Part shown: positions 60,001-63,000 of the stretch, piece after piece
Layout of the letters: each line of letters begins with the position of its first letter
Numbering within the stretch: the first letter of the stretch is position 1
NCBI RefSeq assembly: GCF_048403405.1
Contig: NZ_CP183131.1
Origin: Escherichia coli
GTDB lineage: Bacteria; Pseudomonadota; Gammaproteobacteria; Enterobacterales; Enterobacteriaceae
DNA: 64,000 bases
Reading direction: 5' to 3' (one strand)
Made by a program: the position numbers

Positions 60001-63000
60001 AGTGTGCAAGATGAAGTGGTGCTGGCTGATGGTCGCCCCACTCCTTACAGCCCGGATCAGGGCCATCAGGAACAGGTGCAAGACCGTTTCAGAATCTTTA
60101 CCACTGGAATAGCCGATCATCATGGTCCACCCATCAATTAAGGCCGTGTGAATGGACTCAACCGATGACGTGATCAACGATGACAGACTGGTTCCTCTAC
60201 TGGCATCAACGAAGTTCAAATCCTCGTTATCAGTCAGTTCTGACCAAACAGAATCCCACTTATCCCCACGCAAAAGCACTGGGATGGGTTGTTCTGATAG
60301 ATCAAAGTTTAATGTTTGTTGCATAGGGCCTCCTGGATTAGCAGGGTGCCCATCCCTTCCGGGAAAGCACCCCGGTAGGGTTAAAATTGAATCCTGGCTA
60401 TCAGACCTGAATGAATCGCCACGGGTTTAACAGACACCTCAGAGTCATTTAAGATGGCTTAAAGAGAGGTGCCCATGAGCGGTAAGCGTTATCCCGAAGA
60501 GTTTAAAATTGAAGCAGTCAAACAGGTTGTTGATCGCGGTTATTCTGTTGCCAGCGTTGCAACACGTCTCGATATCACCACCCACAGCCTTTACGCCTGG
60601 ATAAAGAAGTACGGTCCGGATTCTTCCACTAATAAAGAACAGTCAGATGCTCAGGCCGAGATCCGCCGTCTCCAGAAAGAGCTGAAGCGGGTTACCGACG
60701 AACGGGACATATTAAAAAAAGCCGCGGCGTACTTCGCAAAGCTGTCCGACTGAGGTACGCCTTTATCCGTGACAACACCTGTTGCTGGCCTGTTCGCCTG
60801 CTCTGTCGGGTGCTGGATGTTCATCCCAGTGGTTTTTACGCCTGGCTTCAGCAGCCGCATTCACAACGCCATCAGGCAGACCTAAGACTGACAGGACAGA
60901 TTAAACAGTTCTGGCTGGAATCGGGATGCATCTATGGTTATCGCAAAATCCATCTGGATCTGCGGGACAGCGGGCAACAGTGCGGAGTGAACAGAGTCTG
61001 GCGACTGATGAAACGTGTCGGGATAAAGGCTCAGGTTGGATACCGGAGCCCGCGAGCACGTAAAGGCGAAGCCAGTATCGTGTCGCCCAACAGGCTCCAG
61101 CGACAGTTCAATCCGGATGCTCCGGATGAGCGTTGGGTAACGGACATAACCTACATCAGGACCCACGAAGGCTGGCTGTATCTTGCCGTGGTTGTTGATC
61201 TGTTCTCACGCAAAATTATCGGCTGGTCCATGCAATCCCGGATGACAAAGGACATTGTCCTGAACGCACTGCTGATGGCTGTATGGCGGCGTAATCCCCA
61301 AAAACAGGTGCTGGTTCATTCGGATCAGGGCAGTCAATACACAAGCCATGAGTGGCAGTCGTTCCTGAAATCACACGGCCTGGAGGGCAGCATGAGCCGT
61401 CGCGGTAACTGCCATGATAATGCGGTTGCAGAAAGCTTTTTCCAGTTGTTGAAACGCGAACGGATAAAGAAAAAGCTCTACGGAACGCGGGAAGAAGCCC
61501 GCAGCGATATTTTTGATTACATCGAAATGTTTTATAACAGTAAGCGTCGGCATGGTTCTAGCGATCAGATGTCACCGACAGAATATGAAAACCAGTATTA
61601 TCAACGGCTCGGAAGTGTCTAGATTATCCGTGGCGATTCAGAACTAGCTGCTACTCGACATCTGGTTGTCTTCGTATTGCTGCTTGGCCTGTTTCACCAG
61701 ATCAATGTCACCGTCTTGCAGCTTTTGAATATCAAGCTGTAGACGAGCCTTGTGTTTCAACAGTTCAGCGACCGCATTATCAATGTGATCAATGAGCGAT
61801 TGGTTTTTTTGGATGGTGTAACTGTTGAGTTCATCGAGCAGGGGCCATGCAACACTCGAATGAGTGTTGAGCAATGGGTACTCTGCTTCGATCTCACAAA
61901 CCACACCGTTTGCTCCTTCTCTGTAATGAGGGAACCCGACACGCAGACCGATACGACGATCCAGCGCTGCATTTACAGTACATTCCAAAGAAGTTCGGTT
62001 TGAAAAAACATCGTTGACGTTTTTAGACATGCTATATCTCCGTTCAGTTTATGACGGAGCCCCCCTAACAGGAGGTGCTCCCGTCAGGGTTGATAATTTG
62101 CTGTTTGTTTTTGGCAGCCAGCTACCGCACTTGAGCGCCTAAGGCACTTTCCGAAGCACCCTGGGAAACCGAGATGCTTGGGAAAGCGCGGGGTTTCCCC
62201 CTGCGCTGATTACCCTTTTTAAGGGGCCGGTACGCCGATTTCTCGGCGCACTCAGGTTGAAGCTACACAGTCAAGAACCAACGTTTCATAGGGACGGTGA
62301 TGTCTATCATCCCGTTTCCACATGGATTCTGGCCCCAGAATCTGTAGGTCGTCTCATAGAAGTCAAACTCAGACAAGGACTGAATCTGCGCTTCTGAGAT
62401 CGGCTCAAATGGTCCACCGCAACCGATGTGCATATTGAGCCCATAATCTCGAAGCTCTAGCTCTCCGAGATTTAGCGTCTTCCCGCCCACACAAGCAACC
62501 AAGTTCTGGTTTCTGACGTCGCCTTCTTTGAACAGCAAAGCTGACTCATCGTAGCTCCCATATTGGTTGGTAAACTTCACAATATGCCCGTGCTTAGGTG
62601 AGGTTTGTTCCGACAACTCTTTCAGTAATCGCTTTACGCTTTGAAATCTCGCGTACAGAGCTGGCGTAAACTGCCCAGAGTAGTTCAAGTTTGGGCAGAT
62701 CATTTCAAGCATCTCATCAGGTACAGATTCAAGCCCCATTTGCGCGGCCAATGGCTTCGCCTTTTTCAGACCTTCCTCAAGCACTCTCTGATTTACAAGT
62801 TGTTCTAATGTGTTCATTTGACTCTCCACTTTCGAGAGAGCAATGCAAGCCGTCTCCGGACTTACATTGCCCGTTAACGGCTTTATTGGTTTATCCCAAG
62901 AGGTACGGAGCTACGCCAGTCAGGAAGCCCATGACTCCCAACACAGCGCCAACCACGCCCAATTTGATTGACAGTTGGACACTTTGATCCGGATGGTTCC

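What the first reader, a model, noticed from the sequence alone, without database searches (positions are those of the whole stretch)
60409..61643. IS3-family element inserted at an operon boundary with GAA target duplication
A 1229-bp IS3-family element with TGAATCGCCACGG ends and GAA direct repeats lies between the stop of CDS 61644..62030 and the promoter/leader of the 817-aa PP-loop gene. It separates that gene from whatever transcription arrived from upstream and may be polar or provide outward promoter activity.
Basis: seen in the sequence. Interest (0 to 1): 0.3.

Follow-up and report, generated by a model that had tools for sequence, protein, structure and literature searches.

The report
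Known ISEhe3 insertion in IncC plasmid
This is an ordinary, already catalogued mobile element (ISEhe3, IS3 family) inserted between two backbone genes of an IncC resistance plasmid; the insertion is shared by about 66 sequenced plasmids and probably only lowers expression of one accessory gene.

Summary
A 1229-bp IS3-family element lies at 60412-61640, with perfect 13-bp TGAATCGCCACGG inverted ends and GAA on both sides (60409-11, 61641-43). Removing the element plus one GAA gives a sequence found at 800/800 identity in 607 IncC plasmid records, while 66 records carry the identical element at the identical site. It is therefore a discrete insertion with a 3-bp target duplication.

The element is ISEhe3 (IS3 family, IS51 group). 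It is 1229/1229 identical to both copies annotated as ISEhe3 via ISfinder in pT5282-Ct2, and 98.9% identical to a Pantoea agglomerans copy. It looks intact: orfA, an A AAA AAA G frameshift site, and an orfB with a D-D-35-E triad.

The phrase "operon boundary" is not supported. The flanking genes are vcrx112 and vcrx113 of pVCR94, and their 87-nt spacer is 87/87 identical to the empty site here. Published RNA-seq predicts them as one operon, and vcrx113 is AcaCD-dependent with no AcaCD site of its own. The IS therefore splits a transcription unit.

Polarity on vcrx113 alone is the likely effect, because a strong terminator and a separate AcaCD promoter follow that gene. This is inferred, not measured. 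I found no outward promoter. The element is already known and of low interest.

The parts
60409..60411 (.). Left copy of the 3-bp target-site duplication (GAA)
   Evidence: The empty site with a single GAA is present in 607 plasmid records.
60412..61640 (+). ISEhe3 (IS3 family, IS51 group), 1229 bp, apparently intact
   Evidence: Identical over 1229 bp in many plasmids. 1229/1229 identical to both ISfinder-annotated ISEhe3 copies of pT5282-Ct2. 98.94% identical to a P. agglomerans copy. Source names for the exact proteins are 'ISEhe3 transposase A/B'.
60412..60424 (+). Left terminal inverted repeat (IRL), 13-bp perfect core TGAATCGCCACGG; imperfect repeat extends to about 40 bp
60427..60455 (+). 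Promoter-like site TTAACA-17-TAAGAT just inside IRL, upstream of orfA; candidate transposase promoter
   Evidence: 9 of 12 consensus match. The number of such sites in the region is not above shuffles, so this is a position-based inference.
60475..60753 (+). orfA, 92 aa, HTH_Tnp_1 DNA-binding protein (alternative GTG start at 60469)
   Evidence: Pfam PF01527 at E = 4.8e-20
60714..60721 (+). Programmed -1 frameshift site, A AAA AAA G in the orfA frame, followed by a hairpin
   Evidence: codon phase; the fusion reads through into orfB; downstream hairpin, z = -1.7, weak. PGAP annotates near-identical copies (99.8% and 98.9% identical) as 'programmed frameshift'.
60720..61622 (+). orfB frame (-1 relative to orfA). 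OrfAB transposase of 382 aa is encoded by 60475..60720 plus 60720..61622, with DDE triad D224, D284, E320 (35 residues between the second D and E)
   Evidence: Pfam rve, HTH_21 and rve_2; NCBIfam NF033516 transpos_IS3 337 bits against a cut-off of 160
61628..61640 (-). Right terminal inverted repeat (IRR), 13-bp perfect core
61641..61643 (.). Right copy of the 3-bp target-site duplication (GAA)
61644..62030 (-). Upstream backbone gene, 128 aa, homologue of pVCR94 vcrx112. It is intact; the insertion is 3 nt past its stop codon
   Evidence: no family hit
60325..60411 (-). 87-nt vcrx112-vcrx113 spacer, now the leader between the IS and the 817-aa gene. It carries the AGGAGG Shine-Dalgarno sequence and two hairpins without U-tails. 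No promoter or terminator was detected
   Evidence: 87/87 identical to pVCR94deltaX
57871..60324 (-). Downstream backbone gene, 817 aa, homologue of vcrx113. DndC-like PP-loop N-terminal half and an unassigned C-terminal half. This is the gene expected to suffer polarity
   Evidence: NCBIfam TIGR03183 119.8 bits (below the 290.4 cut-off) and PADLOC DndC 1.4e-41; expression data
57840..57872 (-). Intrinsic terminator directly after the 817-aa gene (12-bp perfect stem, UUCG loop, U-rich tail). Marks the end of the interrupted transcription unit
   Evidence: stem-loop in both the MFE and centroid folds of the 56-nt segment; segment MFE -24.9 kcal/mol, z = -2.7. Conserved in pVCR94. Missed by the consensus scanner.
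57815..57843 (-). AcaCD-binding box of the next promoter (the vcrx114 operon), which shields downstream genes from any polarity
   Evidence: 29/29 identical to the box mapped by ChIP-exo/MAST at pVCR94 86650-86678

Best explanation
The feature is one intact copy of the known insertion sequence ISEhe3 (IS3 family, IS51 group). It inserted once into the backbone of an IncC conjugative plasmid, 3 nt after the stop codon of the vcrx112 homologue and 87 nt before the start of the vcrx113 homologue (the 817-aa DndC-like gene), and duplicated GAA. Its transposase reads opposite to the plasmid genes.

Shown here: the boundaries, the duplication, the empty site in relatives, the identity of the element, its intact coding capacity, and its recent mobility.

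Established for the family but not tested here: OrfA plus an OrfAB fusion transposase made by -1 frameshifting, and copy-out-paste-in transposition through a circular intermediate.

Inferred consequence: in IS-free IncC plasmids vcrx113 has no promoter of its own. It is transcribed by AcaCD-dependent read-through from upstream, as the last gene of a unit that ends at a strong terminator. The insertion places 1.2 kb of untranslated antisense IS sequence between vcrx112 and vcrx113. This should reduce vcrx113 expression by polarity (most likely Rho-dependent) and leave every other gene unaffected. The plasmid tolerates this, since the lineage is widespread.
For: Boundaries and duplication.

Discrete insertion: the empty site is matched at 800/800 identity, with 607 records covering it in one piece. 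There are 66 occupied records with 100% identity over 3301 nt, all listed ones typed or annotated as IncC-like.

IS3-family anatomy: HTH_Tnp_1 orfA and rve orfB; NF033516 at 337 bits against a cut-off of 160; A AAA AAA G in the orfA frame and a 382-aa fusion with D224/D284/E320.

Name: source names for the exact proteins. pGSU10-3-1 carries this exact insertion as its only copy and is published as containing ISEhe3. Both ISEhe3 copies of pT5282-Ct2 are 1229/1229 identical. A P. agglomerans copy is 98.94% identical. ISfinder classification as quoted in PMC10425158.

3-bp duplications at five independent sites: GAA, TTA, TCC, GTT and ATA.

Recent activity: strain T5282 has identical copies at three sites on two plasmids, and one of them keeps this window's left junction but has an adjacent 24.5-kb deletion.

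Inside an operon: Rockhopper predicts the operon vcrx112-vcrx113. vcrx113 expression is 298 in wild type, 6 in the acaCD deletion and 979 when complemented. No AcaCD peak lies between 75305 and 86685. The spacer is 87/87 identical and the AcaCD box 29/29 identical. No promoter or terminator was found in the spacer. A strong terminator follows vcrx113. The antisense strand of the IS has 11-24 stops per frame.
Against: No expression data exist for any IS-bearing plasmid, so the polarity is inferred. Rockhopper operons are computational, and vcrx112's own differential expression was not significant (q = 1). Weak promoter-like sequences scoring 8-9 of 12 exist on the antisense strand inside the IS and could give some transcription toward vcrx113. 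The ISfinder reference sequence AF327445 could not be compared directly. A single origin for the 66 occupied plasmids is the most parsimonious reading, but no phylogeny was built.
Confidence: 0.85

Rival explanations
1. The IS supplies an outward-reading or hybrid promoter at its left end. This would drive the 817-aa gene constitutively and uncouple it from AcaCD.
For: This is known behaviour of some IS elements (general knowledge). Weak antisense promoter-like sites exist inside the IS, for example TTGCGA-19-TAATAT at 60739..60709 and TAGACA-16-AATACT at 61621..61594.
Against: No -35/-10 pair scoring 8 of 12 or better lies within about 130 bp of the left end or spans the junction. The number of promoter-like sites in the region is not above shuffled sequence. 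The internal candidates have poor spacing or poor hexamers.
Confidence: 0.08
2. The insertion was selected, not merely tolerated. Lowering expression of the large DndC-like gene would reduce plasmid cost or remove a harmful activity, which would explain the spread of this sublineage.
For: The occupied site is found in 66-68 plasmid records from Klebsiella, Escherichia, Proteus and Providencia, from Taiwan, Japan, Brazil and China among others. That is roughly one tenth of plasmids carrying this backbone region.
Against: The same pattern is expected from hitch-hiking with the resistance genes and epidemic clones of that lineage. About 600 IS-free plasmids keep the gene intact. No fitness data exist.
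Confidence: 0.1
3. The site is a hot spot that ISEhe3 hit several times independently, not one inherited event.
For: None specific. IS3-family members can show regional preferences (general knowledge).
Against: All occupied records listed show the same position, orientation and duplication, and 100% identity across 3301 nt including the IS. The five other documented targets share no sequence with this one.
Confidence: 0.04
4. The sequence is ancestral backbone, not a discrete insertion, and the GAA repeats are chance.
For: None.
Against: The precise empty site with a single GAA is found in 607 records. The same 1229 bp with the same ends occurs in unrelated plasmids and chromosomes, flanked by other 3-bp repeats.
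Confidence: 0.005

Closest known systems
ISEhe3 (ISfinder entry, accession AF327445; first found on pPATH of Pantoea agglomerans / Erwinia herbicola pv. gypsophilae)
   Same: IS3 family. The 3-bp duplication falls within the 3-4 bp listed for it, and it has TG...CA ends and two ORFs. The window's element is 1229/1229 identical to copies published as ISEhe3 and 98.9% identical to a full-length P. agglomerans copy.
   Different: Nothing detected. About 13 substitutions and 5 amino-acid changes separate it from the Pantoea copy, so it is an isoform circulating in clinical Enterobacterales. One source labels the identical OrfA 'ISEc14 transposase A', so a near-identical ISfinder entry may exist under that name.
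IS911 / IS3 (paradigm IS3-family elements; from established knowledge, not tested here)
   Same: Same architecture: an HTH OrfA, a -1 frameshift on an A-rich heptamer giving an OrfAB DDE transposase, TG...CA ends and a 3-bp duplication. The same copy-out-paste-in mechanism is therefore expected.
   Different: A different subgroup (IS51 group, per ISfinder as quoted). I could not recognise an IS911-style junction promoter formed by abutted ends by eye, and this was not tested.
ISEhe3 copies in the IncC plasmid pT5282-Ct2 (MF344574; Front Microbiol 2019, PMC6872532)
   Same: Copy 1 has exactly this window's left junction (400/400 flank identity) next to the same 817-aa gene. It therefore descends from the same insertion.
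   Different: In pT5282-Ct2 the right flank, including vcrx112, was lost in a 24.5-kb adjacent deletion. A second copy sits at a site that is empty in this window (15985-15987), with a GTT duplication.

Membership tests
IS3 family insertion sequence | Length about 1.0-1.75 kb with terminal inverted repeats ending 5'-TG...CA-3' | tested here: met
   1229 bp with ends TGAATCGCCACGG...CCGTGGCGATTCA; 13 of 13 perfect and 29 of 40 overall
IS3 family insertion sequence | Two consecutive, partly overlapping ORFs in relative phases 0 and -1, with an A-rich slippery heptamer in the overlap | tested here: met
   orfA 60475-60753; orfB frame entered at 60720; A AAA AAA G at 60714-60721 in the orfA phase; an uninterrupted 382-aa fusion. 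Frameshifting itself has not been demonstrated experimentally.
IS3 family insertion sequence | OrfA with a helix-turn-helix; OrfB with an RNase-H-fold DDE domain and D-D-35-E spacing | tested here: met
   PF01527 at 4.8e-20 and PF00665 at 9.3e-34. D224, D284 and E320, with 35 residues between the second D and E.
IS3 family insertion sequence | Passes NCBIfam's curated IS3 transposase model | tested here: met
   NF033516 at 337.2 bits against a cut-off of 160 for OrfB alone
IS3 family insertion sequence | Direct target duplication of 3-4 bp | tested here: met
   GAA here; TTA, TCC, GTT and ATA at four other independent copies. Four other copies lack a duplication, in multi-copy or rearranged contexts.
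IS3 family insertion sequence | Copy-out-paste-in transposition through a circular double-stranded intermediate | not testable with these tools
   Needs PCR for circle junctions or in vivo assays. Only indirect evidence of mobility was obtained: identical copies at new sites in one strain.
ISEhe3 (specific element) | At least 95% nucleotide identity to the ISfinder reference (AF327445) | not testable with these tools
   The reference sequence is not in any searchable collection here.
ISEhe3 (specific element) | Identity to copies that others assigned to ISEhe3 using ISfinder, and to copies in the species of origin | tested here: met
   1229/1229 identical to both ISEhe3 copies of pT5282-Ct2. 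The sole copy in pGSU10-3-1 is this very insertion and is listed as ISEhe3. 98.94% identical to P. agglomerans pASB05p1.
IS51 group of the IS3 family | Placement by transposase phylogeny in ISfinder | not tested
   Taken from ISfinder as quoted in PMC10425158, Table 8.
   No promoter-like or terminator-like site in 60325-60411, and its hairpins lack U-tails. In pVCR94 (spacer 87/87 identical) the genes are predicted as one operon, and no AcaCD site serves vcrx113. The true boundary is after vcrx113, at the terminator 57840-57872 followed by the AcaCD box 57815-57843.

The most novel reading that the evidence does not exclude
The ISEhe3 insertion could be a selected regulatory mutation rather than a neutral scar. 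By cutting the DndC-like vcrx113 gene off from the AcaCD regulon, it would lower the cost or remove a harmful DNA-modification activity of IncC plasmids during transfer. It would also mark, and help explain, a globally successful IncC sublineage. The IS at this site has further acted as a source of rearrangement: a second copy and a 24.5-kb deletion in pT5282-Ct2.
Probability: 0.08. Interest if true: 0.3.

Novelty: already known. Interest (0 to 1): 0.08.

Why it matters
It matters little beyond annotation. The element is a catalogued IS, and this insertion is already present, annotated as an IS3 family transposase, in dozens of public IncC plasmid records and listed in at least two papers.

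The modestly useful points are these. The insertion is a clean lineage marker for an IncC sublineage found in several genera and countries. It lies inside the AcaCD-dependent unit vcrx112-vcrx113 and not between operons. The only gene at risk is the uncharacterised DndC-like vcrx113, so these plasmids are natural candidates for a knock-down of that gene. pT5282-Ct2 can be read as a derivative of this lineage, produced by IS-mediated deletion and a second transposition.

Tried and rejected
- PGAP/RefSeq annotation gave only 'IS3 family transposase' with no specific IS name.
- ISfinder is not available. The accessions KF551948 and MF344574 were not found as typed, but NC_023291 and NZ_MF344574 were.
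- Pfam gave no hit at all for the 817-aa protein, even at E = 10. NCBIfam and PADLOC gave sub-threshold DndC-like matches.
- The promoter/terminator consensus scan around the IS gave counts no higher than shuffles. A looser custom scan found no outward promoter at the left end.
- The same scanner missed the evident terminator after the 817-aa gene, which was confirmed by folding instead.
- Folding of the 87-nt leader and of the post-slippery hairpin gave only weak z-scores (-1.6 and -1.7), so no regulatory RNA claim is made.
- The Rfam scan of 57500-62400 found nothing above gathering score. The only hits were two sub-threshold matches on the terminator hairpin.
- Literature searches for vcrx112/vcrx113 returned nothing. 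A search for functional screens of IncC genes gave nothing specific to this gene.
- The paper describing pPM64421a does not mention the IS.
- An IS911-style junction promoter across abutted ends was looked for by eye only, and none was recognised.
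Full report
**Observation.** The window contains TGAATCGCCACGG at 60412-60424 and its exact reverse complement at 61628-61640, which delimits a 1229-bp element. That 13-mer, allowing one mismatch, occurs only at these two places in the 64-kb window, against 0.08 expected from shuffles. The inverted repeat continues imperfectly, with 29 of the first 40 positions matching. GAA flanks the element on both sides, at 60409-60411 and 61641-61643. The right-hand GAA directly abuts the stop codon (61644-61646) of the minus-strand 128-aa ORF. The ATG of the minus-strand 817-aa ORF is at 60324, 87 nt from the insertion point.

**Discrete insertion.** Deleting the element plus one GAA gives an 800-nt 'empty site' that matches at 800/800 identity in many plasmids, and 607 plasmid records cover at least 80% of it in one piece. 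Of the 692 records with any match, 685 are predicted conjugative, and the hosts include Klebsiella, Escherichia, Salmonella, Vibrio, Aeromonas and Shewanella. The occupied configuration, 3301 nt spanning the IS and both flanks, is found at 100% identity in 66 records. Junction-specific queries give 68 records for the left junction and 67 for the right. The plasmids I examined are typed IncC. Identical position, orientation, duplication and IS sequence in all occupied records point to one ancestral event that was then inherited. I did not build a phylogeny to prove this.

**Anatomy of the element.**
- orfA (60475-60753, 92 aa) is an HTH_Tnp_1 protein (PF01527, E = 4.8e-20).
- orfB (frame ending at 61622) carries HTH_21 and rve integrase-core domains. 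It scores 337 bits on NCBIfam's IS3 transposase model against a cut-off of 160.
- In the orfA reading frame the sequence reads TTA AAA AAA GCC, which is the heptamer A AAA AAA followed by G at 60714-60721.
- A -1 slip there reads without interruption into orfB, giving a 382-aa OrfAB with D224, D284 and E320, and 35 residues between the second D and the E.
- PGAP annotates near-identical copies (99.8% and 98.9% identical) elsewhere as 'programmed frameshift'.
- A promoter-like TTAACA-17-TAAGAT lies just inside the left end, upstream of orfA.
- No inactivating mutation was seen, so the copy looks functional.

**Identity.** The exact OrfA and OrfB sequences carry the source names 'ISEhe3 transposase A/B, IS3 family', and OrfA also 'ISEc14 transposase A'. 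ISfinder, as quoted in PMC10425158, lists ISEhe3 as IS3 family, IS51 group, with a 3-4 bp duplication, of P. agglomerans origin, accession AF327445. Three tests tie that name to this sequence:
- pGSU10-3-1 (AP018672) carries this exact insertion as its only copy, and its authors list ISEhe3 among its IS elements.
- pT5282-Ct2 (MF344574) was annotated against ISfinder as carrying 'ISEhe3, and ISEhe3', and both copies are 1229/1229 identical to the window's element.
- A full-length copy in P. agglomerans pASB05p1 is 98.94% identical, with 13 substitutions and 5 amino-acid changes.

I could not compare directly with AF327445.

**Target duplication and mobility.** Perfect 3-bp duplications flank independent copies:
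- GAA in the window.
- TTA in an E. coli plasmid.
- TCC in pT5282-mphA.
- GTT at the second copy in pT5282-Ct2.
- ATA in P. agglomerans.

Four other copies lack a duplication, as expected where multi-copy elements have recombined. Strain T5282 is informative. Copy 1 of pT5282-Ct2 keeps this window's left junction exactly (400/400 flank identity), but its right side abuts tra genes, which matches the published 24.5-kb deletion. Copy 2 sits at a site that is unoccupied in the window (15985-15987). A third identical copy lies on the strain's IncHI2 plasmid. The element at this site has therefore been active recently and has remodelled an IncC backbone.

**Context: inside an operon, not at a boundary.** All backbone genes here are on the minus strand, and the transposase is on the plus strand. 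Gene sizes and spacers match pVCR94deltaX:
- The 128-aa ORF corresponds to vcrx112 (83698-84084).
- The 817-aa ORF corresponds to vcrx113 (84172-86622).
- The spacer is 87 nt. It is 87/87 identical to the window's reconstructed spacer, and the 3.5-kb region is 97.2% identical.

In Carraro et al. 2014 (PMC4207636), Rockhopper predicts 'vcrx112-vcrx113' as one operon. vcrx113 expression is 298 in wild type, 6 in the acaCD deletion and 979 when complemented, significant in both comparisons. vcrx112 gives 46, 0 and 382, the same trend but not significant. ChIP-exo found no AcaCD peak between the vcrx098 promoter (75305) and the vcrx114 promoter (86685). vcrx113 is thus AcaCD-dependent without an AcaCD site of its own, so its transcription must arrive from upstream through vcrx112.

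The spacer is consistent with this. It has no promoter-like or terminator-like site, and its hairpins are not followed by U-runs. The real end of the unit lies just past vcrx113. There I found a 12-bp perfect stem with a UUCG loop and a U-rich tail at 57840-57872. It is followed at once by the AcaCD box of the vcrx114 operon at 57815-57843, which is 29/29 identical to the box mapped experimentally.

**Likely consequence.** The insertion leaves both coding sequences and the vcrx113 ribosome-binding site intact. It does, however, place 1232 bp between them, which incoming transcripts must cross in the antisense direction. That strand is closed in all three frames, with 11-24 stops, so it would be an untranslated stretch prone to Rho-dependent termination. 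It also faces convergent transcription from the transposase promoter. I therefore expect reduced vcrx113 expression, confined to that gene. This is an inference: no transcript data exist for an IS-bearing plasmid.

No -35/-10 pair scoring 8 of 12 or better points out of the left end or spans the junction. The few weak antisense candidates lie deep inside the IS.

The affected protein is uncharacterised. Its N-terminal half resembles DndC but scores below the DndC cut-off, and its C-terminal roughly 350 residues match nothing. The lineage's spread across genera and continents shows that the insertion is at least tolerated.

**Comparison and novelty.** Every testable defining feature of the IS3 family is met. 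The name ISEhe3 is supported by identity to published ISEhe3 copies. Both the element and this particular insertion are already in public records and papers, so the finding is 'already known'. What this analysis adds is small:
- The site lies within an operon.
- Any polarity is limited to vcrx113.
- pT5282-Ct2 descends from the same insertion.

Interest is low. The most novel reading still open is that the insertion was selected because it silences vcrx113. I rate this unlikely (about 0.08), and it would be of modest interest even if true.

Noticed in passing
window 57871-60324 (-): The 817-aa 'PAPS reductase' gene (vcrx113 homologue) has a DndC-like PP-loop N-terminal half (residues about 55-464). 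It scores below NCBIfam's DndC cut-off (119.8 against 290.4 bits), has no Pfam hit, and has an unassigned C-terminal half of about 350 aa. The neighbouring genes seen here (about 6 kb either side in the near-identical plasmid) are not annotated as Dnd proteins. This is an orphan DndC-like protein of unknown role, conserved in the IncC backbone and AcaCD-induced.
   Followed up: partly
window 57840-57872 (-) and 57815-57843 (-): A textbook intrinsic terminator (12-bp stem, UUCG loop) overlaps the stop codon of the 817-aa gene and runs straight into the AcaCD box of the next operon. The consensus terminator scanner missed it, probably because the upstream A-run lets the stem extend into the T-tail. 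Rfam gave only sub-threshold hits on it (ctRNA_p42d, 30 bits against a gathering score of 50).
   Followed up: yes
window 62031-62262 (-): The 232-nt spacer between the vcrx111 and vcrx112 homologues is unusually structured. Its two halves fold with z = -4.8 and -3.6, and 0 of 200 shuffles fold as well. It holds several GC-rich hairpins, none followed by a U-run. Similar GC-rich hairpins sit just upstream of the ribosome-binding sites of the vcrx113 and vcrx114 homologues. Their function is unknown (transcript stabilisers, processing sites or repeat elements are possibilities).
   Followed up: no
window 15985-15987: This position, unoccupied here, is the target of the second ISEhe3 copy in pT5282-Ct2, where it is duplicated as GTT.
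   Followed up: yes
L010 (pT5282-Ct2) 47275-48503 and flanks: pT5282-Ct2's first ISEhe3 copy keeps this window's left junction exactly but has lost the right flank. The published '24.5-kb deletion caused by ISEhe3 insertion into orf672' is therefore better read as an adjacent deletion, or a recombination, starting from the pre-existing vcrx112/vcrx113 insertion.
   Followed up: partly
L007 (pKP308-1, NZ_CP089878) 1-213: In this IncC-IncFII cointegrate-like plasmid the same insertion is present, but the gene on the left is annotated as a 1029-nt hypothetical CDS and not the full 2454-nt gene. This suggests a truncation or rearrangement of the 817-aa gene in that derivative.
   Followed up: no
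ISEhe3-like sequence in E. coli genomes: Fragments or copies of this IS occur in 2548 of 5426 complete E. coli genomes, but only 183 have a copy covering at least 80% of it. Most matches are partial remnants at 95-99% identity, so degraded relatives are very common on chromosomes.
   Followed up: no
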